Positions 1-62,639 of a DNA stretch of 64,000 nucleotides are shown here, one piece after another. This DNA is from Promethearchaeota archaeon. Its GTDB lineage: Archaea; Asgardarchaeota; Lokiarchaeia; Sigyniarchaeales; SOKP01. Both the position numbers and the translations under genes were made by a program. The stretch is from contig JAUVNS010000019.1 in NCBI GenBank assembly GCA_030599585.1, forward strand, positions 16,404 to 80,403, given 5' to 3'. The notes beneath the pieces are model-generated. The model saw nothing but the letters and a program-made list of their open reading frames with translations. It had not been told where the DNA came from and ran no database searches. Within the stretch, counting starts at the first letter, position 1. Every line of letters begins with the position of its first letter.

Positions 1-1
1 A

Positions 2-3228: not shown

Positions 3229-3247
3229 TAAAATAAACTATCATCTA

Positions 3248-3369: not shown

Positions 3370-3383
3370 TTAAGCAAAATAAG

Positions 3384-10646: not shown

Positions 10647-12332
10647 TTAATCGATATTAAAGAAGCTACCTTTGAATTGAGTCAATCTTAATTGCGAGAG
10701 AGGAAATTTCAATATTAATTTTGCTTGTTCGTAAATGTTCTTAAGTTTAACAAGTGATTCATCTCTCAAATCCAAATCATTTCTTTGTAAACAGTCATCA
10801 ACTAAATTGTATAAGTCTTCAATTTTAGATCTTATCTTTTCTTGAACTTTAAGCGTGATCAGAAATTCGTCTAGAAGCATAATCTTTATATTTTTTGCGA
10901 ATGCTGGATTCCTTTGATTGAGATCCTTAGTCAACTGGTCAATGTCAGATTTAGTAAAGGATGGGTGAGTCAAAACAATAAATAAGAAACGATCTTTTGA
11001 CTGATATTCCTTATAATACTTCTTAGTAATGTAATAATCTTTTAATTTGGGCCGTTTTGCCTCATGTGTAAAATCTACTACTAACTCCCTTATCCCATTG
11101 GGTATTATTCTACTAAGAGTTCCGATGACAGTTAAGAATGTCGCTGAAACAGGTATTGAAAGGTCAACTTGTTTGCCTAACCTTCCTACAGGTTGTTCGC
11201 TTTCGACCCCTATTGTAAAACTATGCGATTTGAGACTCATCATTATCAAAAGTTCGATTGGTAAGTGAGTATATGTACCCACAATATTAGGTAAATAACC
11301 TTTAAGGCTTCGCGAATGTAACTTAAATGCTTTATGGGTTACATCTCGCAGATGGGAGTTTTTTGGTTGAGATAAGATATATGATCGTATTTTTTTATAA
11401 GGATTTCGGTTTTCCCTTAACATATTTCCATACGCTAAAAAGTGACCAGGGTTTAACATCTCCGTTTCAATTGTATCTATTAACTCATTGAAAGAAATAG
11501 ATCTTCCTTTGTTCTCAGATTCAAGAAAATATAACCCCCTATAGAGATCGTATTTACTTTCGACATAGACCTTAGAAGTTTCTTTATCATATTTGTTTAT
11601 ATATGGTTTACCAAATGGATTTAAAAACACAAACTCTTTAATGAATTGAGAAACCGTAGATTTTAATTTTTTCAATTGGTCTGAAGAAATCTTAATTCCT
11701 ATAGAATCAAAACGAGCTTCTGTTAATTTGTACGTGTTATAATCTATTTCAAGTAATTGAGTAAAATCAATTCTTTTATCAATTCGTCTTTTACCTAAAA
11801 ATAAACTTGCAGTATCCTTCGTAAATATCAACTTGGCTAATCTTGTGTATGAGAAAGGTACTCCCCAAAATTTAGGGAATATATCAATAAGACTCTCAAT
11901 TAACACTACCCTAGGTTTTATAGGAGTTCTTAAGTTTTCAAAAGCTTGCCCTTTAATAAATTGCATGAAATTACCATAATCTCTGAAAAATTTGGTAGTT
12001 TCATCATCTCTAGTACCATGAACGTCTTCATAAGCTTCGAGAAACTTATCCAAAAACCATTCATATGAGTGACCATCTTTGGTTGATAGAATATTGATTT
12101 TAGTTGCTCCTTTTTGAATCCAATATTCACCTTTATGATTTTTTGCCCAGATTGCGTAGTATTCGTCAAACTTTTCTTTGAGATATTGGAGGTCTTTTGA
12201 AAAGTCAAATTTCTTATCGAACCGGAACATTTCTCTCTTTAAAATCTTGTATAAATGATGAGTCATTTGAGCTATTGAATAATAAAGATTGTCAATTTTT
12301 CTATTTTCTCCCTTATTAATATCAAAAGTCAT
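10647..12332 (-). other. C-terminal basic effector region of the giant protein (aa 13990-14550), with a nuclease-like domain in the last ~210 aa
   Basis: Lys/Arg-rich, unlike the acidic body. Motifs GTYTHLPIE ... ESEQPV ... QVDL ... VVDFT resemble a restriction-endonuclease (PD-(D/E)XK) core. Confidence 0.55.
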
Positions 12333-30300: not shown

Positions 30301-33300
30301 TCTTTTGTTAATTCTGCGGAAAAGCTTCTAGTGCCGTCAATGTTCTCCCACGATTCGGTGTTGTAATTCCAAATATCGAAGCCAAAGGTACTAGCGTCCG
30401 CGCTAGTTGAATACGCGTAATAAAGCTTAATATCTTCGGCATATAACGCGTCTGAAGTTAAGGTTATTTTAGATGCAGCCTCGATTCTGACTTCGAGAAC
30501 TTCCGCGTATGTTATTTCAACGGACACCATATCAACTTGTACATCACCCGCAACAAACCCGAATATTAAGTTTTTAGCGACAAGAGCTACTTCTAAACTA
30601 TCAACAGCACTATCGTCTAGTCCGAGATCAGTCCACTCTACGTTAAATGATTGATAAGTCGTGGTGAGACCTGAGACCAGCTTCTCTGAAGAATAACCAG
30701 TTCCGTCGTGAAACTTTACGAATAATCCAACGGAAGCGTCAGATACGGTCTTAAGCGCGCGAAGTGTAATTTTTACTTTGTATGCTAAATACCCAGAGCT
30801 AAGAGCTACATCGGTATACCTATGGCGATCTATTTTGTAAGGCGACACTGCTCCCTCGGAAGAGATGTAATCACTATCTGCGCTTTGAATTCTATCGTAA
30901 TGGTCTCCCGATTCGTCCCATTGTAGTGGCGAACTATCCAAATTAGGAGTAAGAGTTGTTGTAGAGGGTGTTCCGAAGATATATCTGCTGGTAAAAGTGC
31001 TGAGATCGTCGTCTTTAAACTCTAAGTCGCCTGCTTTATCCGATTCGCCTTCGGCGTAAGTTAAAGCGGACACTTCCAAAAGTTTAAGGTAATAAATTCT
31101 CGAAGAAAAACTAGTAAATTGATCTGATGCTATAAAATTAATAGTGTCAACATCTGCAATTATAAGACTGTCAAAATTAATTGTCGAGCCAGTGGCAAAA
31201 ACATTGTTATTGACGTAAAGAGTACCGGAGATACCGTTAGTATTTTCTAGGTGGCAACTTAAGTAGTAATCCTTACCGGTAATAGAGGGATCGAAATCAA
31301 AAATGATATTTACCAGTTGTCCTCCTAGAATCGTTTCTGAATTAATATAAACGTAATTACTATCGTCCGCGTAAGTGTTCGATATGTCTCCTGTTACCGA
31401 AGAACCGTAGTTTACCGTAATGTCGTCTATATTCTGAATGGTTTCGCTTTGAGTCTGGCTTGGTACGTATTTATAATAATCAGAATTTGCGACCACGGTC
31501 GAATAATTATCGTCTAGAAGATTAAAGTCTCCGTTGTAAATTGCATCGCCTTCGGAAATAACGAAATCCTCAGATTGGCGGGGCACATCTGGACCGTTAA
31601 ATATGTAGTCTAACCCAACACCTGAAGTAGCTTCGGAAGTCAAGGTTAAATAATCGTTGTCGTCGTCGATTACGCTAGAAAGGTCTCCTGTGTGGGTGCC
31701 TTGTTGCTGAGACAAACTATTGAATTCTTTAAGGCTTCCGTATCGGTAATTTTGAGAATTAATTAACGCAAGACCAGTTAGGTCATCGTAACCATATAAT
31801 TCTGTAATATCGGCAAAATGGGGATTATGCATGAAATCGGAAGTCATGTTAACGAATTGAACGCCTTTTTTCGAGGAAGAGAGCTCGATCATGTCGATAG
31901 AAGGACGCTCGTCTTGTAAATCCGCGTCAATTTCGGCGTTTAACACTTCCAGAGCAAATTGACCGTGTAATCGCTTTCCTCTGTGGATTCCTTTAAAATC
32001 TGCCGTAATATTTATTAGAAGTTCTTTTCCCTCTCCAAAACACTCAAAAAGTTTTTGTAAATCTAGACCGGACCCTTTAAGATCAATATCGAGGTTATAC
32101 GTGTCGTATCGATAGAAAACTTGAGCGTAATCTTCGAGATGGAGCGTTCCGAAATAAGTATTACTCCCCGAAACTCGTTGATAAAAGTCTAAATTAACGT
32201 CGTAATCGCTCGAAGATAAAATGTTTGTAACGCTTTCCTTTCCTACAAAACCGCAGGAAAAGTTAAGAATTAAATTTAACCCTAAAAATATCGAATTTTC
32301 GGTTTCTGCTATTGCAAACGGAAATTTCATGGCGCTGTGTTGTAAGAGGTTAATTTTTTCTTCGCGATTATTGTTATCGTTATTATATATCTCGTGAACA
32401 ACTGCCCTGATGTTAGTATATGGGCTTAAATTAATTGATTCTGAAAATTCTATGTAATCGATCGAATTGTCAGAGTTCAAGTGAACGAAATAAGGTTCTT
32501 CGCTATAGAAAGAGTAATCTTGCTCGAAATTCTTAGTGAAATAGTCAATTGAACCGTCGCTTTTTACGCCAATTACGTTCTCTACTATTGTTACGTTCTC
32601 AAAGTTCCCGTTAGGTTCGTAGTCCTTACCCCCTATTGGCGTCAAATCGCTCCAAACTTCCATAGTAAAATTAAATTTCTCGTAATTTAAGATTGCAGTA
32701 AAAGGTAGATATAACCTACCCTCAGTTCTGTCAAACCTATAAAAATCGCTTCCGATTGGGTCTTCGGGAGTGGGGTCTACTAAAACAGACACCATTTTAG
32801 GATTTTCGTTAATACCGTACACGTTCACAATTCGAGCAATATCGTCGACAGATATAGATCCTAACTGTCCGTTCAGATCGATCCAAGGTTGCTGTAGAGA
32901 CGCGGGTGCGTCAAATTCTTGCCCGTGTGCGATGTTAGATAGTTGAACGTTGCTATGGATAACATCTGAAGTTAAAAAGGTTCGAGCGTAAGAATTGTTG
33001 TATTTTAGTTCGGAGCTAACTGCCATTCTTCCTTTAGTATCAAAATTTTCGTCGTAGGTCACCTCCCAATTACCTTCGTTAAAAGTTCCAGGTATAACGT
33101 AAGTAAGACCGAGTAAAGTCATATTAGCTTTCCCCCCAACAAAACTGAAGAAATTCTTCAGATCGTACCCTTCAATATCGTTCGAAATTTTAAAGATAAT
33201 CGTACAATTATCGCTTTCTTTGCCATCATTGTTGCCAAAATAGTAATTATGATCGTGAAGTCTTTGAACAGAATCGTATTGATCGTGATCGGTTACAGGT

Positions 33301-36300
33301 TCTTCCATAGGCCACACGAGCTTATCCTCAATATCGTTGTAAGCATAAGCAGTCCCGTAGTAGGACAACCAATTTTTGTTTAAGGTGTCGTATATTTTTA
33401 GGTTAGGGCGCCACGACCAAGAGTTAAAGTTAGCTACCGAGACGTTGTATTGCAATTTTACAATTATATCTGAAATTCCATCGATATTTTCGGGGGTAAT
33501 TTCTGGAAAAGTAAGATTGAACGGCATAGCCGAAACAAATTCTTGTTCTTGCCACCAAGACGTTTCATAAGGGTAAGTGGTATCGGAGAGCCCTTTGCCC
33601 TCGGTATCTATTAATTGGGGCACAATTCTAAAGTCATTTATCTTATTTGTTGCAGAAATAGAATCTCCGTTTTTCGCAAAGTTTGGATAAGTAGCTTTCG
33701 AACCAAACCCAAAGCTAAGAGTGTTAGCTCCAAACGAACTATCAAATATTAAAGAGTTTATCGAACTAATCTGAGGTGCGATTGTTGTTAGCTTTTCTCC
33801 GTTAGAATTAAAGTTCGCATCGGAATCTAAAGAGATTTTATCGTATAAGTTATTTAAAACGTAGAATTCGTAGGAATCTGAAACGGGTAAGCCGTATTCA
33901 GTATTTAGTAGTCTATCTTCAATAGTAACTGGCTCGTCAGAATAATCGATATTAAGAGTAAACCAATCTACATCTAACCAATTAACCCATGTATTTAAAT
34001 AAAAGCCAATGTTTGAAGAATCAAGTTCTAAACTATCTGTATTCCTATAAATGTCGGTTAAGTCAAATTCGTTATCGCAATATATCATGGGGTAATCGGA
34101 GACAAGGTAAGAACCGGTATATACTTCCCAAAATTCTGATGGTATTTGAAAATTATCAAAAGACGATCTAATCTCGAACCTGTGCGCTAAGGAGGTAAAG
34201 AAATTGTTAGTAATTTCAAAGCCGGAAACTTCTTCCGATTCGCTTCCTCTAATTCTAAACTTATACGCAAATTCCATATCAGAAATATATTCACGATTGG
34301 GAATCGACTCAAAAGAAAACGACAATTCGTTGCTCGGTTCCATAAAATTACTTCTTCGAACCCACTCGTCATCATAATACTTGGTTAAAGCAGGTAAATT
34401 ATATCCCTCCTCGGGATAGGCTTGACCGTTAATAACAACCCAATTGGCGTCGCTTACAGAATCTACAAAAAATGTCGAACTTTCTACTCCTTCAAGAGGG
34501 TTCATTTGATAGTATTGATACGCAGGATCGAAATCAGGACTGCTAGTAGAATAATCCGTATAAAAATCTATATCTGACCATAGCCGTAAATCTTCGAATA
34601 CGGAGTCAAAATCGTACAGATTTTCGTTAAAACAGTAAATAATTTCTCTGTCCGTAGATGCGGTCGAATAGGTAAGGTTGTTATTTGTTTCTCCGGCACC
34701 AGATACGATTGCTGAATCCGTATAATCAAAGTCATCCCAGCTATCAATTTTGTGAAACACTTGATTTTTAATTTCTAGAACTATTATTTCTCCGCTATCA
34801 ATTGCGATTTCAGGATACAAATCAGTAATTACTCCTGGTAAAGAAAAACTCGAAATTTCGCTTCCATCAATGAAGAATTTCCACGTAGGTATATCGTTTA
34901 CCTTTTCACGAGTGATCTCCGCTAAGTGAGTCCCTTCTTCAAGTTGGGCTGCGTCGTAAGAATAGAAATTAGACCCCCCTATCTTAAATTTTACCGTTGT
35001 TGGACTAGTAGGGAGTTTGTTAAAGGTAAATGAGGCTCGATATTTCGCGTTGTCTGAATTATCGATATAATCTAATTGAGGATATGTTTTTGCTCGGTCG
35101 TTAAGCGAAATCTTTCCAGATTTTAATAACACTCCGCCGTTTTCTGCTTCTTCGACATTTCCTAACCCTCCTAAATCTAAGTTTATGTCGTTTAAGTTGT
35201 CTTTATCGGTTAACACAACGCATTGAAATTGCCTAAGAATAAGCTCAGAGGCACCTGTGGACCCATCTAATAATTTTAAAGTATCGCCTGTGTATCCTTG
35301 TAGTTTTACAGTAAAAGTAATTTTTCCATCTGAGACAAAGGAATTACTCAATTCCGATTTGTCAACCTTAAGGTAATCGTAATTGTAATCGTGTTCTTCG
35401 GATACGTCGTCGTTTGGATAGAAAGGGGTTTTTTGTTCGTATAAAAACTTAAATACGTCGTTCTCGTCTTGAGTGAAAAGACCTTCGCTAATGTATTCTG
35501 AATCGTATATGAAATTGGCTTCCAAGGCAGCATTACTGGGTTTTAAATACTTATTGCCGTATGTGCCATAGTCTATTGCCGTGGAATATATCGATTCTCC
35601 AAAATTAATCGTTTTATATTTCACTAACTCTTTAGTAGCGTGATTTAAATCTAGGTTTGTGGTTTCAAAACTTTGTCCAAAATTAGTGTTATCTAAAGAG
35701 ATGAAAATGTTGTCTTCTTCTCCAACATCAAAATTGTCAAACGATTGTTCTCCAGGAATAGGATATAAAACATGCCCAAACGAAGTAGATATCAAAATAC
35801 CTTGAATGGACTCAGCGTCCTCATTATGATCTAGTTGAAATTCAACTTTTAGGTATAAATCATCACCTGCGTTATCTTTTTCTTTCCAAACGCTCATGGT
35901 GTAATCTTTTTGAGTTAATGCGTCTTCAAAACTTGATGCTGAAGGATCGTAGCTACTTCCGTCTTGATCGATAAACGTAACATCACTTATTGTTGGTTTA
36001 TACGCTGCAACGTTGTCGATCCCGAATATTGACCCCATTTCTGCGGTTAACGCCGAATAATCGATGAGATCTTGTCGCATGTCGACAGTGGTAGATAAAG
36101 TTAAGTTTTCTGCCCATACAGAATCAATATACGAATTTTCGTACAAACTTTGGAAATCGTCAGGGCGGTTAAAATCTTGACCCGTTTCGAATTGGGCTAA
36201 ATCAGAACTCATAGAAACTTCTAATCCTGAGGTGGAAATCGTACCGTAATCCATTCGGTTGTTCCCAAACTCAGTGAGCAAGGATAAGTCAGACACAGAA

Positions 36301-39300
36301 TTAATTCCGCTCTTCCAAAAATCGCCTTCAGATAGAATATATGGATGTCCCGTGGTAACATCGTTAAATTGATAGTTCCAATCTTCGTATTGGGTTCCGT
36401 AATAGAAAGTCCAATGGTTAAGATCGTTTGGATTAAGTAATTGAAACGCAAGGTTATCTGCTTTTATTTGAGAGTTTTTAGCAGCTATATTACTTACGTG
36501 TTCGTATTCTGCCGTGTTATATTGAGCCGATAATAGCCCGGAAGCTTCCGCTATACTGGCTTCGTAGAAATACCTTACCTCGAAGTACTCATCGGCGGCG
36601 TTTTCCCAGTGCCACTCGTTTTTGTAGCATATAAGTTGTTTCTTATCGCCGCTAATCTTATAACCAGACGGATTTATTTCTCTTAACGAGTCGTATATAT
36701 AAGCACCACCTCCAGTGGCGTAATCTCGATATTTATCGAATTCGTACACGTTGATAACTTCTATTGCGGGATAGTTCGATAATGGAACTAAAGCCGTATC
36801 GGTATCGTCAGGTAATTGGTATTCAAACATATCCCAGCTTCTAAACGTGTCAACTGCGTAAAATACTGGAGTTGCAGAAAGTGATATCACGCCTGTATCT
36901 ATGGTAGTTTTCCAAAGTCCTTGAGAGGAGGATATAAGAACCGATTCTAAGTAATCTTCTTTAGAATTAACGATTTGGAAAATTCTAAAGTCGTAGATTT
37001 CGGACGCAAAAGATTCTAACCCCGTATCAAGGGAAAATTCGGTTTTATACCAGTTGTCTGTAGAGGTATCTAATATGTAATAAAATACTTTATCGTTTTC
37101 GTTGTATGACTTCATAGAAACGCCAACAACTACGACTTCTCCAATCTCACACATAAACGAGTTTATTTCTATAATTGCTCCCTTTATTGCGGTTTCAAAA
37201 ATTATCAGCGAAGTTGGTGTTAAGTCTTTATTAATGGAATACATCGACGAGTTAATTATTCCGTTAAACGAAGGGTTAATAGTTCCAAAATACAGCTTAT
37301 CGCCAATAAGGCGCATTGTACTATGAACTTTCTGACCGTATATCTGGGTGGCGTCGCTCACTTGAGTTTTCGTTAAGGAAGCATCAAAATCAAGTTGCGC
37401 AACGTAGTTGACTTCGTTAGAGGAATTACTAACGCTCACATACATGGTAAAGGATTGGTCGCTCGTGAAATCTAGTAAAAAGTCTTTGAAAATCGCGTCA
37501 GGAAGTGGTTCGGGTAAAGTAATACTAGAAACCGTTGTTGTTTGATTTAAATAATACGATAAAGACGAACTATTGTAAATATAGAAAGAAATTGCATCGG
37601 AATCGGATAATTTGTTAAATATTACTAAGTCTGTATAATTATCGTTGTTTAAGTAATAATTTGATATTTTCTTTCCAATTAACGAAAATCCTAAGGGAAT
37701 GGTGAAATTAACGAACCATTGATTGTTTGAATCGTTAAAAGAATATACGTATATATCACCATTTAGCCCGACTAAGAACGGATGTATAGCTCCGGTATCG
37801 TCAAAGGTTCCATAAGAGCCGTAGAAATAATTACTTGGCTGTTGATGGTATGTATAATTGATAGGAAGATAAGATCGTTGGTTTGGCATTAATTTATAGA
37901 AAGTGTTGTTGCTCACCTGCCAATCGACCGTAAAATACCCATTAGAAGTGGTTGAAGTGCCCATAGGAAGCCAAATTTGGTCGGAATAATCGTAATAACT
38001 CATATCAACAGTTACGTCAGAAGTATTCGCGTTATCGATCCAATTGTCAACAAAACCGCTAAATTGGATCGGATTTTCGGTGTAATTAGTGTTGCTGCTA
38101 TGATATACAATATCGCCAAAATTTAACGCTCCTTCTAAACTACTAGAATCTTCGTTGAAAATATAGAGGTTTTGTATGACAACGAACATATTATCCGCCT
38201 TATCGTAAATTTCTGCTTTGACGTGGGTGAGACCTTCCGCAAAATTTTTCCCGTTTAATTCGAATTGGTAAGTTGGAAACGGAATTGTAAGCGGATCAAA
38301 AACCATTTCGCCTAAATAATAATTACTGGCGTTGAATAACTTAATTTTTTCAATGTTGTGCAAGAATCGATAGCCGTGCTTCACGTAATAGGACTGACTA
38401 GTAGCGTTAAACACGTATCCTGGAGTGAAGTATAACGTTTTGTGATCATGATCGGAACTGCCAAACATAATGTTTCCGGCGTCTCCGGTCTTACCAAGCT
38501 CCCAGTAAATACCACCGTTGGTCGTATTAGCGGTAAGTAGACCAAAACTGCCTTCTGGTGTAAGGTCGTCGTAATGAGCTTGATATCTTTGTGTGACAAG
38601 AGTATTGCCGTATAAATCTTCTACTTCGAAGTAAAACTCAAATCGATCCCTCGTGTATTTACGAGGAAAGTTGTAGTGGGGATCGTCGTTCTCGAACCCA
38701 AGCAGATTGTCTGTCCAACTCTCGGTCATCCCACTCAAGAAAGCAGATATGTCTAAGTTATTTAATACCCAATTTTGCTGGTCGTAAGAAAACGATGCAT
38801 TCCAACCAAAATTGCACTTAATTCCTTTTAAAATTATATCTGTAGTAAGGTAGTTCTTATAGCGTTCGTCAAATGTAATTTCTTGCGTTACGCTATCAAA
38901 AAAGAATGGGATCGAAACACCGTCTAAAGTAACTGCCTCTTCAATTGCGTATACATTCAAATTGAGGAGTGAAATTACCTCATCGTTCCATAGAATCGAA
39001 TTTTCGTAATATTTACCCGTTGCGTTCGTCCAATAATCGTGGAAAGAATAAGTGGTACGATTAGTTGCTAAATAAAGATAATTGGATGAGTTCCAAGAAT
39101 TCCTTCTCATAATTACGTTAAACCAGTTTTTATTACTACCTTGTTCTTCGTAAATTGCAGGACTTGCTAAGGTTTTTAGTACGAATATCTTAACTGACGT
39201 AATCTGAGAAATGTCTGCTAATTCGAGTTCTAAATCTGTATTATCGTTAAAATAAATATCGTTGCTAAAACTATGGCTATTCATTAACTTGCCCGTTATC

Positions 39301-42300
39301 TGAGGTGGAGAGTTATCTACGATAATAGGGTACTTGAACGTAAAGACGTTGTTTGTATAATCCGTAAAAACAAAAGTAAGGTTATGGGAGCCATCTGGAA
39401 TCCTGTTAGAATCGATGATCAGATCGTCGAAGTCGTAAGGTAGGTTATAATAAGTTCCAAGATCGACATATTCGCTATTCGCGTAAATATGGAGCGAGTA
39501 TATCGATTTGTTAAATAAACCAGTACCGTCGCTATTAATTCGCATTAAGCTGGAACCGTTAAACAAGAAACCGCTTTGTAAAGTCTCAGGGAAAAATCCA
39601 AGAACCGTATCGTCAAAGTAAATGTTAAATTCGTCTACAGATAAATACCCAAGGGTATCGTTCGAGATTACCCTAATTATTTGAGTTTGATTAAGTAAGG
39701 GTTCGTTAAAATAGAAACTGAACACGCCTCCTATAACTTCTGTGCTCCCGCTAACGGCTCGCCAATCAGATTCGTAAATTTGAAGGAAAACAGAATCAAC
39801 TCCAGAAGGATCGGTTATTTCGAAAGCAACCATGCCCGAAGTATGGTTAAGGAATACGCCGTCCTCGAACTGAGGGTCAACTACTGGTCCCGAGTGATCA
39901 ACTACCATTCCAAGGTAAGATTGTACAATTTCTGTGTTGTGAATGTTATAGGCAGTAATTTCTAAATTATAAACATCTGAAACAAAGTTAAAAACGTCGA
40001 GATTTAAAACGAACGAAAAGTTGTTTAACATCGTGGTGGAGTATGTATACTCGACGATAATTTTATATGTATCGTGCTCTATATAATCATCGTTAAATTG
40101 AATAAATAAGGTCTTATTTTCGTTATTTGTGTCGTAATAATAAAATATATCACTAGGTTGTAATATCGTTGCGTAACCCTCGTCGTTATTCGAATCAATG
40201 AATAGACGGGTAATTTCAAACATGCCCGAAGGAACGGGTTTAACCTTTAAAACTTGCTGACCGGTGATAGAACGGGTAGTTTGAACCGTGAGGTTCGCTT
40301 TATTGTTAAGATCTACGTTTGGAACAAAAGAGTATTCGTAAGCGTTTCCATAGGTTTGACCGATAAACTTTATGTTGGGACGCGTATTGTAATATGGCAT
40401 GCCCCAGACACTTTGGTACAAACTCGTAATATTAAGCAAGAATGTATTAGAAGTAGGGAATGTTTTGTCTGTGTGGTGATAAATACCGTCGTAATTTCCT
40501 TCTTGCAAAGCCATAGAGTTGCCATTGCTATTGTTGCATAACAACCGAATTGCACCTATAGGAATCGATCGATTGAAGAACCTGAAATCGTCAATACTGC
40601 CATCAAATAAGTTATTTGCCCAAGTTTCGTTTGCAAATCGGGCGCCAATTGCTCCATAAGTTGGAGAGTTACCCGTATAATTCTCGTTATGGGTTACTGA
40701 AGGCCCAAATTGAATTCCGTTCTTGAAAAAAGTTACGATGCCGTTTTCTTTTGTAATTCCAAAGTGCACCCAGGTGCCTATCTCAAATAGTTCTGGACCA
40801 CTTACAACTGAACCGCCAGCAGGAGGGTTGTGATCGAAAGATAATGCTCCATTCTCAAGAACGCTTAAGTAATTTCGAACAAGTTCTCCGCTTTCATATT
40901 CTCCATAAAGAGCAATAGTGTTATTTAACTCATTTAATTTAACCCAACCAGTTATAGCAAATGAGTCTTGACCGTTTTCAAAGATAGGAGAGGTTTGTAT
41001 ATAATCGTACACAATTATTTTTAGCATTTCTAAATCTAATTTAAAGGACTCAAGTTGGTTTTCGCCATAAAACTTAAGTAACACCTCGTAATTACCATCG
41101 AAATGATCTGAACTAAGATTGTAAATATTCTTGGAAAAAGTGGAAAAAGAGCTTATACTAACGTTCTCCCACTTGCTTAGAGAGTAATCCCACACGGAAA
41201 AAATTATTGGTTGCGTTATGTTAGTGCGATAACCATAGTAAAGCCCAATGTTGTCAGTGGAATCGCTAATTCCCAAGGGTAATTTAACAGTAAAGTTTAA
41301 TGTAGGCGGAACAACAGCTCTATAATCGTAAAGCTCCACTTTATTCACGATTAGCTGAGTATTATTTCCAATTATAACGAAAGTAACGTTAAAATCTTCA
41401 AAAACGGATAACCCTTTACCATCCATAAAGGAAGAAACGTTAAATTGACTTTGCGTAGTTTCTGAGTTGTTAGTTGCGTAAATCGCGGAATGCCATTGAC
41501 CGTCCGCTTTGATCTCGTATATAATCTCGAATTTATTTTCCCTCCCATAATTATTATAATAATCGAAACTGTCGCTAGTAGTATTAATCGAATAATCAAG
41601 ATTAATAATAAACATACCATTTTCTTTTTCAAATTGAGATAGACTGCTCTCGTCCGGATAAGCTAGTTCGAATTCTTGTTGCAAAAGCATCTGATTGCTT
41701 AAATTGAGACACTTGAAAACAAATGTATACCTTAAATTTACTATCTCTAATAGTCCATTAGATATATTGAACTTAAGGCCAAAACTATCTTTGCTGGTCG
41801 AATCGAACTCAAAAGTATTTGAAAAATGGTGCCAAGAGCTATCTCTAACTAAAGCGGATTCAGACGAATCGATATAAAATGTTGCGAAATCGCTGAAATC
41901 AGTATGGTCTTTCGTAAAATTGTAATCAAAGTCGATTGATACATCGTATAGTTTTTTGTAATTTGAATATCCCGAATCATATCTATCTAAAAAATTACTG
42001 CTTATACTTTTGGTTATATCTGCAAAAACTTCACCCGTCGATTTAACGGAAGTATAGTCTACTCTCAGTTGATCGATATCTAAATCGAACGCTGATAAAG
42101 AGTTTGCTAGATATCTTACCTTAACGGTATTTGAACCGTCGTAGTAATCAGAAGTCAACTCAAATGGACTTGAATCGGAAATTAAATTCCAACCAGTCCC
42201 CGACCCTGTGAACTTCCAAGCGTAAAAGTCAATAGTAGCTGAAGAAGAGTGGGCGAAATTTATTTCGTCTAGCGTATAAGCGTAAACATCTGAAACAGAC

Positions 42301-45300
42301 CAAGAAACATCAGCGTCCAGGTAATACATGTCAATGACAGGTTTATAATCTACTCTGGCTTGGTCTAAAGTCATACTATGTGCGGAAGATTGAACTGATG
42401 TGTATACTCTCATCAATACTTTATTAGTGCCGTCTTGGTAATACTCGTCGTAAGTCGCTAGGCTTTGCGAAAAGCTGTTACCCATACCATGCCATCCTGG
42501 AGCGTCCCAATCGTATATTTCTGCCGTCCCACCGTTTCCTGCGTAATAAACCCAATCCATCGAGTATACGTTACTCGGGATCATGCTAAACTCGGCATAG
42601 ATTCTGTGATTCGGAGTTCCTCGGGTAAGAACGGTTTCTACCGAGTCCACACTGACAGTATAAGCGCTACCTGTAAGTTTAAACCAGGCAACGTAAACTC
42701 GAAGGTCGTTTACTTGGCTTTGGGTTAACGATAATCCTGACCACGTGAAATACGATGTCCAAGTCCAAGAATCGCCCACAATTGCGGTTTTAGCTGACGA
42801 GTACACACCCGTACCTATTCTCCACCTTACTGAAACTCCACAAAATGCTGGAGTTGATTCTTTTATTCGTGCTCTGATCTTAACGTCAGTTACTTCAGTA
42901 CCTGCGACCCAAGAAGGGTTTTGGATGCCAACTTCGCAATTTGTATTTTGTCCGGATAAGTAATCGCTTCCCGTACCGGTATCGTCAATTTTCTCGTGAG
43001 CAGAACCGCTAGATGGATATAACGTCCAAGTATTTGAATAAGTATAATCTGGACGGAGGGTTGGATAATTTGCAACGTTAGTGAAATATTTCCCAGAATT
43101 TATCGTAGTTTCGTCCGCATCGTCACCTAAAAGATCTCCGTAAGGAGTAGCTAAACTGCCGTAGGTGAAAGAGAAATCTCCAAGTTGAGCAGGTACTTTT
43201 GCTAATTGGGAACCGCCAGATGGTACGAGCTCGGAAGAAATTGTGGAATTGGTGTCCCCTGATGAAGTTAAATTTCCATAAGGAGCCGAATAATCGCCTA
43301 AAATCACGCTAAAATCGCTCGGTTGACTGGGGGTTAAATGATCGTTATAAGATACGAATTCCGAAGAAAGATCGCCGTTACTAAATGAGGAACTAGTAAA
43401 GGCGGAATTGTAATTTAAGTTCCAGTTTGTCCAATCCTCAGATAAAGTTTCAGTAGGGAGTGATGTGGTCATGGATAAAGGATTCATAAAGAACGAGTCG
43501 TTATATCCATCTGGAAAGTAAAGATGACGCATATAAGAACTCTGAAAAGAACTAAGAGAGTCAGCCCACAAAAGCTCGTAATAAGGTTCGTGCTTTTCGT
43601 AGTTGTAATCAAAATCAAACCCTTCTGAGGTAAATTGAGTAGCTGAACTGTCTATTTTTTCTAAATTTCCACTCCAGTCTGAGCTTCCTTGTTCAAGAGT
43701 GAAGTCTTGAGGTTGAGATGGAATAACTGTAATGCTATTAAGCGTTAATGAATGGTCTCCAACTTTTCCTTGGGTCCAGCTTTCAATTCCTATTAAGCTA
43801 CCATCATTGTTCCCTGTTGCGTCGTAAATTACGAGTCCATTTCCTTCGTCAAATTTCCACCAAGTACGCTCGGTGTTCTCCCCTACATTATAGTAATTTT
43901 TATCGATTTGGAGGTCGTTAATGTAAATGTTAGTATCTAATCCTAACGAGACCGTAAATGGAATTAACAGTTCTATAGATTGGGATTTTAGATCGGAAGC
44001 CTTGATCTTTAAAATTTGCGTATCTACCGTTTGGTCTTCGAAATCAAAATCTATTGGATCGAAGGTAATTAAATGTTGAAAGTATAGCCCTTCCGCTTCA
44101 GGGTCAATTTTCTCAAAAGTATACACTTTATTCCCAACTGTCAAGTTTAAAACTTTTAAATCTTGAGCTATTGGGTAAATTTTAAAATAAAAAGGTTCAA
44201 ATATATCGTAAATACGATCAAAAGCGTAATTCTCTACGTACAGGTCACTGAAATAATTCTGGTCGTTGACAAAAGAGAATAGCAATTCGTTTCCATCGTT
44301 TCCAGAGGTATCGTATCCTACTATTTTAAAATCTACGTCTCCATCGGGCATGTATTTAACGTTCCATTGAAGAGTATCATTTGCGCCATAAACCGTGAGA
44401 TCGTCTCTCCAACCTTTTCCGTAGTTATAGGACAGTCGATAAGATTTGAAATCGTTATTAGAAGAACTTATTGTGCCGTTTACAAGCCCGTCGAACTCAG
44501 AGGTCGCTGTCCAAGAACCACTCGCTTGCTGAATTTGATATAAAACATCGTTTGGATTGGTATCCACGGTAATCGATGGGCCGTCAAGGTCGAGTTCTAG
44601 ATCATTTTTCGTAAGGTTAAGGTTATAACTTCCAAATAAAGGATAGGTAACTTTCAATTCTACAACAATGTTAAAAAGAAGCGACTCCTCCCAAGGCAAA
44701 TTAATAAATGGCGCTGAAAAGGGTGAGTAAGTAGCGTTGTTTATTAAAGTCCAATTAGCGTATCCCTGTTCTACCGCCCAAAATTTCGCGTAGTCTATCC
44801 TAGATTCTATTACATCAGAAATTACCAGCGAGATTTCGTCTTTTTTACTTACTGTATTGCTAACTTTTATAGCGTTTTTAAAAGGACTAACAATCGTTTT
44901 GTTTTCGTAGGTATCAAAAGAACTAAAAGCTCCGTTATACGCCTCCGATATTGCGTACCACGTACCGTTTGGAACCGATTCGCTCGAAATATAGTAAGCA
45001 AAATCTCCGCTAGAATCTGATAATTCTACCATTTGAGTCCAATTATCTTTGTTTTGAGTGGTAGGAACGTCGTTGTACATATAATAAATTACCTTAGTAA
45101 GCGAAACTCCGTTGTTGTTGGTGGTAGTAAACTTAATATCGCTGTTGACTTCTTGACTGTCGGAGATCGGCTCCCAATCGTTAATTCCTATCGAAAATGC
45201 TTTGCAAGTGATATTTGGAGGGTTATTAATTACGGTAAGATTGGAAACAGTAAGACTTCCTTGCGATCCCTTGTTGTTTTGGAACACTGCTTTCAGTTCG

Positions 45301-48300
45301 TATATAGTATCGTCGACTAAATTTGTGGTGTTCCAAGTAAAATTGAAGTAAGCAAAATTATTTTCGAAACTATATTGCGAAACGTTGGCAACCAAATCCC
45401 ACCCTGAATAATTACCCATATTTTTGTAATTGTAATACAAAGCAGCCCATTCGAAATCGTTCCCGATCGCTTTAACTTCCACGGGATATAACCCAGAAAC
45501 TACCGTAAAAGATTCTACGTTAACAAATTCGGGCAATATATCCCCTTGAACGAATTCAAACTTTACGCTATCTATGATCACCCCCCATCGACTCCTAAAT
45601 TCTTTCTCCGATGTGATATAAAAAGCGTCTTTCAACTGTGCTGTGAGTTCCAGGAATAAATAATCGGTGTCAGTAACTATGTCGTCCCCGTAAATGTATA
45701 TTTTAATAGGATCTTTGGTATAGTAATATTTTTGACCTAAATCGTTTGTTACGTTGCTAAAATCGTTAAAATCAAATTCTTGTATTTTAATAGAAGCGTT
45801 TGAATATTCAGAAAGAATTTTTGAGCTGAATTGATTGAATATTTCTAATTTAAACTTTAATAATTCTGATTTAAACTCGTCGGTAGCTTTATCTCGATCC
45901 GTTCCGTTTTGATACTCAAAAAATGGGTGAACGGTTATAATAGATCTTAAATAATAATCTAAGGTATCTTCAGACTCTAAATTAGGCGTTACTATTCCAA
46001 CCCGACCGGTAGAATCTGGACCGTCGATTAAGAGTTCGTCTTGATACGAATCGTAATAACCAAAACAATCGGTTAGATGAGTGTTTATAAGATTGAGGTA
46101 GTTCGCAGGACAAGTATTTTCAACTGTTTTAATTAAAACTGGTAAGTAGTTGTAGTTGTTCCCTTCTTGAGACGCCGGATAATAAGCATCGCTTGTGGAC
46201 GAAAAAGCGATAAAATCGTCTCGATTATCTATTTCAATGTCGAAGTCGCTGAGTAAGTTCAAATCTGCTCCTTTGCTTACCTTTTCAAAAAAGCCGTAAG
46301 GGTTAGATTCCTTAGTAAGCAAATACAACTGATTGTTTGCAGACCCGTTTCTCCAATCAATCGACAACTTTAGACTGTTGAAAATAAGATTGACGCCGTT
46401 TTGAATGTTATACGAGTTCAAGTCGTATGTTTTTACCTTTACGTTTAACACTAAATAAACTACTTGCTCGTTGCTTTCGTATAAATCTTTAAGAAGAGCA
46501 AAAAGAGCCTGCTTTTCAGTTTGTGTAAGTTGGAAATATTCTTCTTTGTTGTGAATTTCAACTGAGAAGTTCTCTAAGTTAAGCGTATAATATAAGTTTC
46601 CAAAATTTTTAGACCATTTAGAGTTGAGATTAATGTCTTGGAGAGAATACCCGGTCCAAGAATTGTATCTAATTTCGTTAGAGATAACTACGTCGGGATT
46701 GTCGTCGCTTTCGACCATAACCATTAATTCACATTCTAAGTTAGAATATGGAAGCGAGGACATGTGTTCGAATTGGTCGAAAAATAAACTAATGGCGTCA
46801 AAATCGATTAGTAAGTCAATTGAATTATCGTTAGATTGTTCTAGATATGGATCCACGAAAGCTGTAACATTTTCTAAATTCAATTTGTTAGAAATCAAAA
46901 ATTCGCTTTGAGCGTAAGTGCTTGACTCGTGTGACTTAGTTAACACGCCAAACGACTCCGAAGAGAAATTAGTTGGATTAAGTTTGAAAGAAAGGTATAC
47001 GTTATCTAAACCGACTTGATATTGGTCGAGGTCGGCAGTCTTGTTTAAACTCCAATCGTCTTTTACTAAGTTAAACCTTAAATTGAAGTGTTCCGTGAAG
47101 TTAATAGGGTAGGGGAATTGTACTTCGAAAGGGTAGATGTGATTTTGAACTTTGGTATCAGTTGCGTTAATTTCTGAAAACGATAAGGAAGTTTGCGATA
47201 GGTTGTAAAAATACCTTAAGTATTCGGGGTAATAGGTAGCGAGGTTATTCTCGACCCAATTATCCAAAGTTTGAGCGTTCCAATCTGTATCTAAAATTAC
47301 GCACTGAGTACCTGCAAATTCTAAGGAAACGATATATCGCAACCTATCTTCTGACTCGAGCAGGTCGTTATCAAACACGCTTAAGTCTAAATCGAAGTAT
47401 ACGCTCATATTAGCTGAAAATGCACTATCGGTAAAAAGGATGGGCATGAAGTCAGCAGAAAGCGTGCTAAAAGAGTTGAGATCGGCTCTCGCGCACGAAG
47501 TATATTCTACTGTCCAAGAGTTCGAGTTATTGGTTGAAAAGGTCCAAAACACTCCGTTTGACCAAAACGCGTCTGGATTTTGCTCTTCGGTACTTTCTTC
47601 GCTTTTCACGTAAAAGGGTCCGGTGAACTCTTGAGTCTCTAAATCGAAATACATATACTGAATTTTCCACTTGCTACTTTCCCCAGTTTTTCTGGAATTC
47701 ACTTCGTAGGCTATAAAAAGAGTGTCATTAAACCCTAAATTGACAATGGGGTTAAGCATTTTATAAAAATCGTAATCTCCAAAATTGATTGAGTCAGAAA
47801 TAGTTTCTACTATATTAAACTGACCGCTACTACTATTATACTGAGTGTGTTTAAAAATTAAGTCGCTATACGAGCTATTAACTTGACTGGAGTATACTAC
47901 GCTGATTAAGTCGTCGTTATTATATACGATGTCTGCTTGTCTGGAAATCGACTCGTCTTCTAGACCTCCTGAGACAAAAATATCTTCTTGAAACTGAAAG
48001 TTATCGTTGGAGACATCTAAATAAATTTGACGATCAGTAGCGTTAGTAAATCTTTCGAATATATACGCAATTTCGTTTTTTACGATTGAAACGTCAATTA
48101 TTAAGCTATTAGGAAGAATATAATCTTCGAGCGAGTACTTAACGTAAAAATAATTTTCTGAAGGAAGTTCGGAGGAAAACGATATGTTAAGATTATCGTT
48201 TCCGTAAGCACCTATTAAAGACCAGTTGTTCCTACTCAACCGAGTTGCGAAGCGTTCAATTTCGTAGGAGGGAAGTGGTGAGGTCGAGTAGTAAATATCC

Positions 48301-51300
48301 TTGACTTTTTTAATAAGAGTTACGTTATCGGCAATAAATGATTTAAGCCCGTAGTTGTCAATCCCGCTATAAAAAATGTTAATTCCAAAGTTAAATTGTC
48401 TTGAATCGTACACGTCTTGAAATTGAAGGTCATCGGATAACACGATTTGATCTTGATCAAATAATATGCTTTGGTCTCCGAATAATTTTACAAATTCCAA
48501 TTCTGAATTAAACAAAACTTTTGTTTGGCTCAAGTGATCTTCAATCGATATAGAATTTATCTGAAACACTCTCTCGCTTGAGGTCTGGTTGTAACTTACG
48601 AAAATAGTAGTTGAGTCTTCCAACAAAAGCGAAGTGTTGTAACAGATTCTAGTATTTATTTGAGGAGATTCAAGATCCCCGTTGTAGTTTATTGCGTTGT
48701 TTGACCCTGGAATAGTCCAAGAATAATTTAATTTTAGCATGTCTAATTGAAAGTCGAAATAAGAGGAATTTTCACCGCTTAATTTTGCTTTTACTTCAAA
48801 ATTTGCGTTATAATAATCAGAACTCGTAATTGAATACAATCCATCAAAGAACGAAGTGTGGACCGAAGAATTTACGAGATCGTATTGTTGGGAGTTGTAG
48901 TTGTATAACGAAATATTAATAGTTTGGCTGATGTTTGTTCTATAACAATACAACAACTCCGCGGAAGCTAAATCGTATTGAACGGGTTTATTTCCCATTT
49001 CCAAATCGGAAATAAAAGATAAATTGTTAAGAGTCGAGCTTGGGGAAGGCCGTTCTGATTCGAACTTTATTTTCAAATTGGTTATGTTAGTTTGAGACGC
49101 GGAGAGTCCAGACCAAGTGTAGGTTTTCCATTCAGGCGTTGCTCCCATGTTTAAAGGTTTTATTCCGAGCCAACTACCGCAAAACACGTTTATAGTTGAT
49201 TCAATCGAAGATTCGTTCCCATATACCTTTATAACAATTTGATCCACAGTCCCGCCTTGCACATCAAGATAACTCATGTCAAATTCGTCTGTGATATTTC
49301 CAGAACCGGTGCTTATTGTATAAATGAAATCGCTCGAAATAGTGGGCGCAGTAGGATCCTCTACTACATCGTTAATAAGTTCGAAATGATCGGTCCCAGT
49401 TGTTACTTCCCAATCATTTACAACATCGGAGTCTGGTCTTACAATACCGTTGTCTTGAACAGTACCACCACTGGCAGAATGCGAAAAAGAAGTTTCGTTA
49501 GTAATTATATAATGGGCAAATCCTGCCGTGTGTCCAACTTCAGTATCTTGATAACGATCTTCTTGGAAGTACGGTTCAATCTGAGTAGAGGTGAATGGAG
49601 AATCTTCCCAATTAGCCCAAGCACCATTGTTTCCGTCCATGCGGACGTATTTCGCTACGCCCCAAGTAGGAGTCTCTCCAAAGTTATGGTCTTCAAGGTT
49701 GTTGTGAGATTGTTCTTCGATCGTGTCTGCTGTTATTCCTGATTTAATGTGGAGTCCGTTTATCGAAAAATCGCCTTGTTCAATTACTATATAACTAATC
49801 GTCTCTCCAGGATGATTGTCTTGCGGAGTGCATTCAGCAGAAGTCATTGAAGTGTAAAACGCCGAAGTAGAGGGATGAGTGGTTCGGGAACCGCCATTTG
49901 TCCAAGATTCGATCCACTTACTTCCGGTTGCTGACGCGTTTTCAGTAGTTACAGTCGTGAGAAAATTGGCGGTTGTAGAACCCCAGAAAGTAGTATTTAA
50001 GGTAACTTGGTCGCCTGCCGAACCATAAGTATTTGGTACGACGGTTTCGGTATAGTGGTTACCTGCCTCAATCTTAGGCCAACCTGCTTCTTCCCATTCT
50101 CCCGCTTCAACTACCACTAAATATATATTGCCATGACAAGTCGCATTAGAACCGTATATATAATCCGGAACGCCAACTTTTGTCTGACAGCTCGTAGAAG
50201 TAACCGAACGGATTTTAACACCTACCGCAGTATCAGCAGAATTAAATCCTGAAGAAATTTCAAGGTTCGCAATAACAACGGGTTCTACATAGGTATTTTG
50301 AAATGATACATCTACCCAAGTAGTCTGATTTACTCCAGTAACTTTAATGGTTTCGATTTGGAATCCATTTCCACTTCCTTCTGAATATTCGTAAGAAACA
50401 TCACCGTATGCTGCGTATATTCTACTCCCTATCGCTTCAGTTTCATCGTAATCAGGAGTGAACGTTGAATAATCGTTGTCTCTATCGACAATCGAGCCTA
50501 ACCAGTCAGAAATTCCGCTTAGCATCTCAAAATCTGAAGGTTGAGCTGGAACATCCTGCGACGAACCCGTACCACCACTACCACCAGCAATTACATCGTT
50601 TATGGCAATGGGCGTTGAAAAGGAAGTATCTGAGTAAGAAGAACTTAATTGGGTATAATACAAGTTTTTAATAGTGTCGTTAACATCCTCGTTAATTCTA
50701 CTGCCTTGGGTAGGATTAGTCCAAGTAACCTCTTCGAAAGCGACGTGAACTATACATTCTTGGTGAATTAACTCTAAATTTTGATCGTATATATTACCGA
50801 GAGGGGTTAAAGTAATTTCTGGAACCATCATAGCGGTTTCGTCTAAATTTCCCAGTTCGTAATTAGTTACATTTATCACATCTTGTACGGTAAAATCTTC
50901 CAAGCTGACTCTTCCGTAGACTATTGACCATTCAGATTCGCCGTTTGAGTGAATGTCTTGATTTCTTTGTTGCCAAGTCACATATAGATCGGTAGAACTT
51001 AACGCAATAGCGGGCGAAAGTTGGTATATATCGTCTTCGCCTAGATCAAATAATCGAACGGGCGTTGACCAATCTCCTTCAGGTCTGTAAGCGTAAGTGA
51101 GGTAAATTTTCCACATACTTTCAGTGGCGTATCGAGCAGCAAAAACTATAATAACAAGTTCGTCGTTGGATACTATTTTTGGAACAACATATCTCTGCCG
51201 TATGTCCTCTAAACTACCGTCTGAATCTCCTACGCTCGTAAATTCGTCCTTAATAACGCTCTGGAAAGTGTTAGATATGTTAATAGGGGGGTTAAGGCTT

Positions 51301-60768: not shown

Positions 60769-61109
60769 TAGTAAAGAAATAATTAACTCTAACATACACA
60801 CAATAGTAATATATCTTTTTCCCCATTCTCCATAATAATTGGTGTTCCGCCGTGGTGCCCCCTCCTAAAAAAGTAGGTGTTTCAAATTAGAACATTTTAA
60901 AGCTCTTTAATAACTTTTTCAGCAAATCCTCTTGAAATCTTCCAAAAAATAAAATTAAAAAAAAACAGAAAAATATTCCTTAGAAGTGCAATAGTATAAG
61001 AATCCCTAAGTGCTTTAAAGTTTTTTATAAAGAGGGTTATTGGACGGCAGCATTTTTATTTCAAGTATTTACAAAAACACACTCTAAATTATAAATATAA
61101 TTATAACTA

Positions 61110-62512: not shown

Positions 62513-62639
62513 ACCATAAAAATTAAATAATTATATAACTATTTTTTCTACTTGGTCTAAAATCATCACCAAACATTAGACTTCAAGCGTCTTTAAAAAG
62601 AAAAGAAAAAGAAAAAAAAATTTAATTATTTAATTATAG

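What the first reader, a model, noticed from the sequence alone, without database searches (positions are those of the whole stretch)
40540..43862. Russian-doll domain nesting: a LamG domain interrupted by 909 aa of concentrically inserted domains
Seen: the LamG N-part ends at SLTLN (aa 3521) and resumes at YDYIQT (aa 4431). Inside is a series of short N-halves (PSQPQDF..G..GNL..D; two less clear segments; PSQPSDF..G..YGNL..D; PAQLGDF..G..YGDL..D), then one intact domain (TLRPD...), then a series of ~90-aa C-halves ending LDQARVDY, IDQLRVDY, IVNLRYTF, VNKVELY and LEMLKI. Inference: each domain is inserted into a loop of the previous one, to about 5-6 levels. The chain would run out and back to build a rigid side-branch with a tip domain. 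Linear domain annotators would miss this.
Basis: partly seen in the sequence, partly recalled or inferred. Interest (0 to 1): 0.85.

Follow-up and report, generated by a model that had tools for sequence, protein, structure and literature searches.

The report
Six-deep nested domains inside LamG
In a 14,550-residue surface protein of an Asgard-type archaeon, one lectin-like (LamG) domain is split by 909 residues made of five sugar-binding-type domains nested one inside the next around an intact tip domain; such deep nesting is rare but already known from the cyanobacterial RNA polymerase.

Summary
The ORF (window 10647-54299, minus strand) carries a LamG domain. Its N-terminal strands (aa 3479-3521) lie 909 aa from its body (aa 4431-4590). 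A profile of ordinary contiguous LamG_3 domains reads both pieces as one domain, broken exactly between profile positions 44 and 45. Spliced it scores 126.7 bits; the body alone scores 71.4.

The insert obeys a stack rule. Five short N-pieces are closed in mirror order by five C-pieces around one continuous jelly-roll tip.
- AlphaFold2 models compared with solved structures show single about 140-aa carbohydrate-binding modules superposing on first-plus-last pieces for four layers (Z 7.3-13.5).
- The fifth layer has weak support only.
- LamG closure rests on sequence alone.
- Relatives, mostly sediment metagenome fragments and one Promethearchaeota genome, keep the mirror order. They show one layer fewer, two layers, swapped layer order, or up to eight open layers.

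None of the inserted modules matches Pfam. The likely function, inferred and not shown, is a doubly connected side arm holding out a binding tip.

The principle has a precedent in the Si3 insertion of cyanobacterial RNA polymerase. This scan had already reported the same architecture in another giant gene of this genome.

The parts
43737..43865 (-). LamG N-piece (aa 3479-3521), the W-x-F-D-E-G...N-D-G strands of Laminin_G_3-type domains
   Evidence: It matches positions 2-44 of a profile of contiguous LamG_3 domains. It is contiguous with the body in ordinary relatives such as P0052, P0058 and P0061.
43623..43736 (-). Layer 1 N-piece (aa 3522-3559), P-x-Q-P-x-D-F...G...G-x-L...D motif
   Evidence: pLDDT is 81-88. 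CBM16, CBM29, CBM4 and CBM61 domains align over model range 1..909 with 118-136 residues, more than the 103-106 residues of the C-piece alone. It is contiguous with its C-piece in P0019:2727-2863.
43455..43622 (-). Layer 2 N-piece (aa 3560-3615)
   Evidence: The Fbs1/Fbs2 sugar-binding domains and the phage J-1 Dit CBM2 align over model 39-54..805-810 with 126-153 residues, Z 9.1-9.7.
43344..43454 (-). Layer 3 N-piece (aa 3616-3652)
   Evidence: CBA120 TSP4, iota Ib / CDTb RBD1, CBM15 and Eph ligand-binding domains align over model 94-97..673-680, Z 8.8-11.2.
43206..43343 (-). Layer 4 N-piece (aa 3653-3698)
   Evidence: pLDDT is 90-93 in model 1 and 75-86 in model 2. CBM61, CBM16 and CBM4-2 align over model-2 range 1..430 with 113-120 residues, against 97 in the C-piece.
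43065..43205 (-). Layer 5 N-piece (aa 3699-3745), paralogue of the layer-4 N-piece
   Evidence: It belongs to the same motif family (alignment A4). pLDDT is below 50 in both models. Docking on its C-piece has weak support only.
42618..43064 (-). Continuous tip domain (aa 3746-3894), jelly roll
   Evidence: Model-2 range 80-104..240-248 aligns with a cyanophage tail-fibre CBD, the furin/Kex2 P-domain and CBM32, Z 7.6-8.0. This layer is absent or replaced in some relatives.
42345..42617 (-). Layer 5 C-piece (aa 3895-3985), ends LDQARVDY
   Evidence: It is a paralogue of the layer-4 C-piece (alignment A5, 30% identity). pLDDT is 65-83.
42054..42344 (-). Layer 4 C-piece (aa 3986-4082), ends IDQLRVDY
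   Evidence: pLDDT is 88-95. It closes with the layer-4 N-piece.
41718..42053 (-). Layer 3 C-piece (aa 4083-4194), ends IVNLRYTF
   Evidence: ranges ending at model 673-680. pLDDT is 87-98.
41319..41717 (-). Layer 2 C-piece (aa 4195-4327), ends VNKVELY
   Evidence: ranges ending at model 805-810. pLDDT is 93-98.
41010..41318 (-). Layer 1 C-piece (aa 4328-4430), ends LEMLKI
   Evidence: ranges ending at model 909. The same domain type also occurs as free-standing about 100-aa tandem units in P0091 and P0019.
40530..41009 (-). LamG body (aa 4431-4590)
   Evidence: Pfam Laminin_G_3 scores 53.5 bits (cut-off 27.6) over profile positions 4-144 of 151. It covers positions 45-201 of the contiguous-LamG profile.
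10647..54299 (-). Host gene: one open frame of 14,550 aa
   Evidence: Two further nested stacks lie at aa 1249-1858 and 7571-8124.

Best explanation
The stretch encodes a recursive domain insertion. A LamG (concanavalin-A-like) domain of the giant protein's extracellular body is interrupted in the loop after its N-terminal strands. The interrupting domain is a carbohydrate-binding-module-like jelly roll, and it is itself interrupted in the loop after its own first three or four strands. This repeats five times until a continuous jelly-roll tip domain is reached.

The chain therefore runs outwards through five short N-pieces, builds the tip, and returns through five C-pieces in mirror order. 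Each C-piece completes the sandwich begun by its N-piece, and the chain finally completes the LamG domain.

Shown here:
- the precise split of LamG;
- the mirror grammar and its conservation with variable depth in relatives;
- predicted closure of layers 1 to 4;
- the intact tip.

Inferred:
- closure of layer 5;
- that the stack is a roughly linear arm joined by two chain crossings at every junction, and so stiffer than beads on a string;
- that its job is to hold the tip, and perhaps the lectin-like layers, well away from the trunk of a membrane-anchored surface fibre to bind a glycan or a partner cell;
- that layers are gained and lost as units during evolution to change the reach.
For: LamG split:
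- The contiguous-LamG profile aligns positions 2-44 to aa 3480-3524 and positions 45-201 to aa 4432-4589.
- Spliced, the two pieces give one domain of 126.7 bits, against 71.4 (body) and 48.4 (N-piece).
- Ordinary relatives have the two pieces adjacent.

Layers:
- AlphaFold2 of aa 3522-4430 gave mean pLDDT 75.4 and pTM 0.55. Values are above 85 for residues 1-170 and 470-909.
- The alignment used held no contiguous N+C rows.
- VIA-align places whole single-domain CBMs on discontinuous ranges. Examples are 2zew_A (Z 11.0, rmsd 3.0, 126 of 146 residues, range 1..909), 9eui_D (Z 13.5), 5w6h_A (Z 11.2, range 95..673) and 2e33_A (Z 9.7, 139 residues, range 53..806).
- The Foldseek-independent search gave the same ranges.
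- In model 2 (aa 3653-4082), 2xom_A has Z 7.7 with 120 residues over range 1..430. The tip is contiguous at 80..242.
- Layer 5: the complex score is 0.39 against a best control of 0.00, verdict 'weak support'. That mark was reached by 58 of 80 solved complexes and 2 of 110 mismatches, but at 0.60 or under by only 7 of the 80. The runs agree in at least 94% of contacts and the partner's pLDDT is at least 65.

Comparative evidence:
- P0019:2727-2863 has the layer-1 pieces 20 aa apart.
- P0003 has the same stack minus layer 5.
- P0006 has LamG-N, two N-pieces, two C-pieces and the LamG body.
- P0025, P0053 and P0026 have the layer types in another order, still mirrored.
- P0002 and P0070 reach 8 open layers.
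- Stack-rule test: 45 matches and 9 mismatches, against 28.9 +/- 3.7 for shuffles.
- Two other giant ORFs of the same genome carry such stacks.
Against: - No contact map or coordinates could be exported. The structural evidence consists of first and last aligned residues plus aligned lengths, not residue contacts.
- Layers 4 and the tip rest on middling Z values (7.3-8.0), which the tool warns can reflect common folds.
- The layer-5 N-piece is unmodelled (pLDDT below 50).
- LamG closure was never folded.
- Layer-1-type C-pieces also occur as autonomous about 100-aa tandem units without any N-piece (P0091, P0019). The N-piece is therefore an accessory set of strands, not an indispensable half.
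- Rigidity, arm shape and ligand are untested.
Confidence: 0.85

Rival explanations
1. Beads on a string. The C-pieces are autonomous sequential beta-sandwich domains, and the short N-pieces are linkers or mini-domains that do not pair with them. Only the LamG split would then be real.
For: Layer-1-type C-pieces form tandem arrays of about 100-aa units with no N-piece in P0091 (aa 323-700) and P0019 (aa 1825-2126). Each C-piece (91-133 aa) is long enough to be a domain on its own.
Against: - The N-pieces have pLDDT 81-97.
- Solved single domains align with 113-153 residues over ranges spanning an N-piece and its mirror C-piece. That is more residues than the C-pieces contain for layers 1, 3 and 4.
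- The mirror order is kept when layer types are permuted in relatives.
- A natural contiguous N+C version exists.
Confidence: 0.07
2. The halves pair between molecules. N-pieces of one chain complete C-pieces of a neighbouring chain (domain swapping or strand donation), zipping giant proteins into a lattice and not forming an intramolecular arm.
For: Split domains can in principle be completed in trans. The N- and C-pieces dock as separate chains with weak support. Nothing tested here distinguishes cis from trans.
Against: The strict mirror order is what intramolecular nesting predicts, and trans pairing does not need it. The monomer models close layers 1 to 4 in cis with high confidence.
Confidence: 0.04
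3. Prediction artefact. The discontinuous superpositions come from AlphaFold packing unrelated pieces, or from the aligner including stray terminal residues.
For: Only range ends are reported. Model 1 has pTM 0.55 and one third of its residues below pLDDT 50.
Against: Three different, mutually nested ranges recur over dozens of unrelated solved domains in two independent searches. Sequence evidence that needs no fold says the same.
Confidence: 0.04

Closest known systems
Si3 insertion in the trigger loop of cyanobacterial RNA polymerase beta-prime (PMC10895346; described as a six-level recursive insertion in PMC13114784)
   Same: One small beta fold is inserted repeatedly into copies of itself. 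Several domains are built from distant parts of the chain. The result is a long arm (150 A for Si3) projecting from a host domain.
   Different: - The fold is the sandwich-barrel hybrid motif, not a CBM-like jelly roll.
- The host is a cytoplasmic enzyme loop, not a LamG domain of a surface protein.
- Si3 is a fixed, conserved feature of a clade. Here depth and layer order vary between relatives, from 0 to 8 open layers.
Ordinary Laminin_G_3 (PF13385) domains of surface proteins
   Same: The host domain matches the family over its whole length once the insert is skipped.
   Different: In about 180 of 187 related LamG copies the N-piece and body are adjacent, separated by at most 54 aa. Here 909 aa intervene.
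Carbohydrate-binding modules of the beta-jelly-roll type (CBM4, 16, 22, 29, 61 and others)
   Same: The fold of layers 1 to 4 matches, with Z 7.3-11 over 113-133 residues of about 140-aa modules.
   Different: There is no sequence-family match in Pfam or the PDB. Identity is 4-17%. Sugar binding was not tested. These modules are split by insertions, whereas the solved ones are continuous.
Nested domains of Gram-positive pilus tip adhesins such as RrgA
   Same: A surface adhesin in which domains are inserted into one another, so that a binding domain sits at the far end of a doubly connected stalk.
   Different: As I recall, there are only two or three levels, the folds differ (Cna-B / vWA) and the organisms are bacteria.

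Membership tests
Laminin_G_3 (PF13385), concanavalin-A-like | Pfam profile match above the gathering score | tested here: met
   53.5 bits against a cut-off of 27.6, at aa 4431-4578, profile positions 4-144 of 151.
Laminin_G_3 (PF13385), concanavalin-A-like | N-terminal strands and body together cover a full-length profile of contiguous family members | tested here: met
   The locally spliced sequence scores 126.7 bits over profile positions 2-201 with a 2-residue gap at the joint. Unspliced, the break falls between positions 44 and 45. The profile was built from this query's own hits.
Laminin_G_3 (PF13385), concanavalin-A-like | The two pieces form one beta sandwich in three dimensions | not tested
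A joint alignment of LamG and inner rows could not be made with the tool's MAFFT.
Beta-jelly-roll carbohydrate-binding modules (fold level) | Superposition of a whole solved module on the predicted domain | tested here: met
   Layers 1 to 3 give Z 8.8-13.5 and layer 4 gives Z 7.3-7.7, with 107-153 aligned residues.
Beta-jelly-roll carbohydrate-binding modules (sequence families) | Match to a curated CBM family profile or to a solved CBM sequence | tested here: not met
   No Pfam family at E <= 0.1 for any module. No PDB sequence at E <= 0.01.
Beta-jelly-roll carbohydrate-binding modules | Carbohydrate binding | not testable with these tools
   This needs glycan arrays or binding assays.
Recursive nested domain insertion (A1-B1-C-B2-A2 type, as in Si3) | Discontinuous domains whose pieces occur in mirror order around a continuous core | tested here: met
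Recursive nested domain insertion (A1-B1-C-B2-A2 type, as in Si3) | Homology to Si3 (sandwich-barrel hybrid motif inside the RNA polymerase trigger loop) | tested here: not met
   The fold matches are jelly-roll CBMs, not SBHMs, and the host is a LamG domain. It works like Si3 but is not a member.
Galactose-binding-like / P-domain / CBM32-type jelly roll (tip domain) | Clear structural match standing above background | tested here: inconclusive
   The best Z is 8.0 (8ke9_A, 134 residues, rmsd 3.6) with many ties at 7.6-7.8. There is no Pfam hit.

The most novel reading that the evidence does not exclude
These Pfam-invisible jelly-roll modules may be a dedicated self-nesting family. On this reading, Asgard giant surface proteins build side arms of adjustable length by adding, dropping or reordering whole layers under a strict stack grammar. 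Fragments reach eight open layers, deeper than the six-level record reported for any protein. This would make them a natural system for tuning the reach of a binding tip.
Probability: 0.3. Interest if true: 0.65.

Novelty: new variant of a known kind. Interest (0 to 1): 0.5.

Why it matters
It is one of the deepest recursive domain insertions on record. The tip sits at depth six here, and related fragments have up to eight open layers. It occurs in unannotated modules of Asgard archaeal giant surface proteins, whose architecture is otherwise opaque.

- It shows why profile-based annotation leaves such giants blank: split domains and an unknown family.
- It gives a simple grammar for parsing them.
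- It offers a natural series of arms with 0 to 8 layers for studying how nested, doubly connected domains fold and how stiff they are.
- It does not establish a new principle, because cyanobacterial RNA polymerase Si3 already shows six-level recursion.

Tried and rejected
- **Pfam on 5,000-aa chunks of the giant.** This found almost nothing and even lost the LamG hit. Pfam on single modules, on the last 700 aa and on the first 700 aa found nothing credible.
- **One alignment for aa 3470-4600.** MAFFT --auto, which I reproduced locally, always misplaced either the LamG rows or the tails of the inner rows.
- **Word-index homologue searches for the inner modules.** These returned one protein ('near') and none ('longer'), so the N4, tip and C4 columns stayed shallow.
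- **Foldseek alone.** It gave multi-domain matches (reelin repeats, Cry protoxins, neuropilin) with TM-scores about 0.1 and no ranges, which says nothing about nesting.
- **DNA direct repeats at module boundaries.** As a trace of recent duplication or recombination, only short chance-level matches were found.
- **Model coordinates.** They are not available to scripts, so no contact map could be computed.
- **Fifth layer as two chains.** The complex prediction gave 'weak support' (0.39 against a best control of 0.00). It is cited with its caveats and is not strong evidence.
Full report
**Setting.** The window holds one open frame of 14,550 aa on the minus strand (10647-54299). It is flanked by genes for a WD40-TIR protein, two Nudix fusions, NadA, an LRR protein and a beta-helix protein. 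The finding covers aa 3479-4586 of this protein.

**The LamG split.** Pfam sees only a Laminin_G_3 body at aa 4431-4578 (53.5 bits, profile positions 4-144 of 151), because that model does not include the N-terminal strands. A search of 1.84 billion representative proteins with aa 3470-4600 gave 567 hits at E <= 0.001, of which the best 150 were returned.
- Mapping them back shows that in ordinary LamG_3 proteins the piece aa 3480-3520 lies directly before the piece aa 4432-4586 (P0052, P0058, P0061).
- I built a profile from 30 such contiguous domains. In the unspliced protein it aligns positions 2-44 to aa 3480-3524 and positions 45-201 to aa 4432-4589.
- A locally spliced sequence gives one domain of 126.7 bits with a 2-residue gap at the joint. 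The body alone gives 71.4 bits and the N-piece alone 48.4.
- Of 187 N-piece/body pairs among the hits, about 180 are at most 54 aa apart. The exceptions are 85, 90, 223, 249, 261, 436 (P0006) and 910 aa (this protein).
- The LamG domain is therefore truly interrupted in one loop. I could not fold it, because the tool's MAFFT (reproduced locally) would not align LamG rows and inner rows together.

**The insert, by sequence.** I cut the insert into modules and built an HMM for each. The modules are N1, N2, N3, N4, the centre, then C4, C3, C2b, C2a, C1. Module strings of the related proteins follow a last-in-first-out rule.
- P0003: LamG-N, N1, N2, N3, centre, C3, C2b, C2a, C1. This is the same stack without the N4/C4 layer, about 147 aa shorter.
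- P0035: N1, N2, N3, centre, C3, C2, C1.
- P0025, P0053 and P0026: N2, N3, centre, C1, C2b, C2a. The layer order is different but still mirrored.
- P0047: N2, centre, C2b, C2a.
- P0006 (860 aa): LamG-N, two N-pieces, two C1, LamG body.
- P0002 and P0004: alternating N1/N2 openings closed in reverse.

A stack parse gave 45 matched and 9 mismatched closings. Shuffled closings gave 28.9 +/- 3.7, and 0 of 2000 shuffles reached 45. The proteins are kin, so this figure is descriptive only.

In P0019:2727-2863 the N-piece and C-piece of a layer-1-type domain are only 20 aa apart, giving a continuous about 137-aa domain. Inserts between matched pieces range from 20 to 1,689 aa, and open depth reaches 8 in P0002 and P0070.

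The N-pieces of layers 1, 4 and 5 share one motif (P-x-Q-P-x-D-F...G...G-D-L...D; alignment A4). The C-pieces of layers 4 and 5 are paralogues ending I-D-Q-L-R-V-D-Y (alignment A5).

One caveat applies. Layer-1-type C-pieces also occur as free about 100-aa tandem units without N-pieces (P0091, P0019). The N-piece therefore adds strands to a core that can stand alone.

**The insert, by predicted structure.** Model 1 covers aa 3522-4430 and was built from 81 rows. I checked every row against phmmer mapping, and none was a contiguous N+C version.
- Mean pLDDT is 75.4 and pTM is 0.55. Values are above 85 for residues 1-170 and 470-909, and below 50 for residues 175-466.
- Coordinates cannot be read by scripts, so I used VIA-align, which reports the first and last aligned residue.
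- Whole single-domain CBMs superpose on range 1..909. Examples are CBM16 2zew_A (Z 11.0, rmsd 3.0, 126 of 146 residues) and phi812 baseplate 9eui_D (Z 13.5, 135 residues), along with CBM29, CBM4, CBM22 and CBM61. The layer-1 C-piece has only about 103-106 residues, so the rest must come from elsewhere, and the range begins at residue 1.
- A second set spans 39-54..805-810 (Fbs1 2e33_A, Z 9.7, 139 residues; phage J-1 Dit CBM2, 153 residues).
- A third set spans 94-97..673-680 (CBA120 TSP4 5w6h_A, Z 11.2; iota Ib / CDTb RBD1; CBM15; Eph ligand-binding domains).
- The Foldseek-independent search of 48,161 chains gave the same three nested ranges.
- The 'two less clear segments' are thus the N-pieces of layers 2 and 3. 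These always travel together with C2b and C2a as a two-layer cassette.

Model 2 covers aa 3653-4082 (37 rows; mean pLDDT 73.9).
- CBM61, CBM16 and CBM4-2 fall on range 1..430 (Z 7.3-7.7, 113-120 residues, against 97 in the C-piece).
- A continuous jelly roll lies at 80-104..240-248, that is aa about 3732-3900 (Z up to 8.0; cyanophage tail-fibre CBD, furin P-domain, CBM32). These Z values are middling.
- The layer-5 N-piece stayed below pLDDT 50.
- Folded as two chains, the layer-5 N-piece against its C-piece scored 0.39 with a best control of 0.00. The verdict was 'weak support'. That mark was reached by 58 of 80 solved complexes and 2 of 110 mismatches, but at 0.60 or under by only 7 of the 80. 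The runs agree in at least 94% of contacts and the partner's pLDDT is at least 65.

**Count.** There is a split LamG host, five split jelly rolls and one continuous tip: seven domains, with the tip at insertion depth six. Layers 1 to 3 are well supported, layer 4 reasonably, and layer 5 by paralogy, grammar and a weak docking score.

**Distribution.**
- The named sources of relatives are the Loki's Castle marine sediment metagenome (LCGC14), subsurface metagenomes and a 'Promethearchaeota archaeon' MAG (P0007).
- The window's genome (4.85 Mb, 52 contigs) holds two more giant frames of 13,906 and 13,858 aa that carry mirrored stacks.
- With the aa 4083-4430 query, 3 of 24 genomes of the same genus and 0 of 16 others in the order had matches, inside frames of 9,240 and 13,771 aa. 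This means 'not found with this query', not absent.
- The giant itself has two further stacks at aa 1249-1858 and 7571-8124.

**How it probably works.** Each junction between successive layers is crossed twice by the chain. If the insertion loop lies opposite the domain termini, the layers would stack into an arm several domains long. That arm would be stiffer than singly linked beads and would display the tip domain away from the trunk. All layers have a lectin-type fold, so glycan binding is plausible. None of this was tested.

**What is known.** A survey of 2.7 million classified domains reports that most insertions are single-level and cites six-level nesting in cyanobacterial RNA polymerase as the extreme (PMC13114784). 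The Si3 crystal structure shows eight sandwich-barrel hybrid motifs, four of them built from distant chain segments, forming a 150-A arm (PMC10895346).

The principle is therefore known. What is new here is the fold family (Pfam-invisible CBM-like jelly rolls), the host (a LamG domain of an archaeal giant surface protein) and the variable depth and order among relatives. An earlier report of this scan (e1-5654833) described the same architecture in another giant gene of this genome and named the same precedent. My evidence was gathered independently on this stretch.

Noticed in passing
window 48726-50555 (aa 1249-1858) and 29928-31589 (aa 7571-8124), minus strand: Two further nested stacks lie in the same giant protein. 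One N-piece at aa 1249-1281 is closed by a layer-1-type C-piece at 1773-1856. Two N-pieces (7571-7601, about 7748-7773) are closed by two C-pieces (7936-8034, 8041-8122).
   Followed up: partly
own genome, contigs C23 (frame of 13,906 aa) and C24 (13,858 aa): Two more giant open frames in the same genome carry mirrored stacks. C23 reads N2, N3 ... C1, C2b, C2a. C24 has three N-pieces followed by five C3-type pieces.
   Followed up: partly
P0043, aa 1174-1460 (related protein): Here a LamG body appears between two parts of a C2b module. LamG can therefore be the guest as well as the host in this family.
   Followed up: no
P0091 aa 323-700; P0019 aa 1825-2126: Layer-1-type C-pieces occur as head-to-tail about 100-aa units without N-pieces, so the core sandwich is autonomous.
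   Followed up: partly
window 12001-52000 versus 1-8000 and 60001-64000: The giant gene has 37-40% G+C, against about 30% in the flanking genes. The cause was not examined. It could be amino-acid composition, codon choice or foreign origin.
   Followed up: no
window 2-6103: A WD40-TIR protein, two convergent proteins with C-terminal Nudix domains and NadA lie side by side. This looks like an NAD-related signalling or defence cluster.
   Followed up: no
window 39300-54299 (aa 1-5000): Pfam loses the Laminin_G_3 hit when the protein is scanned in 5,000-aa pieces (0 families), although it is found in a 1,833-aa piece. Long biased queries hide real domains.
   Followed up: yes
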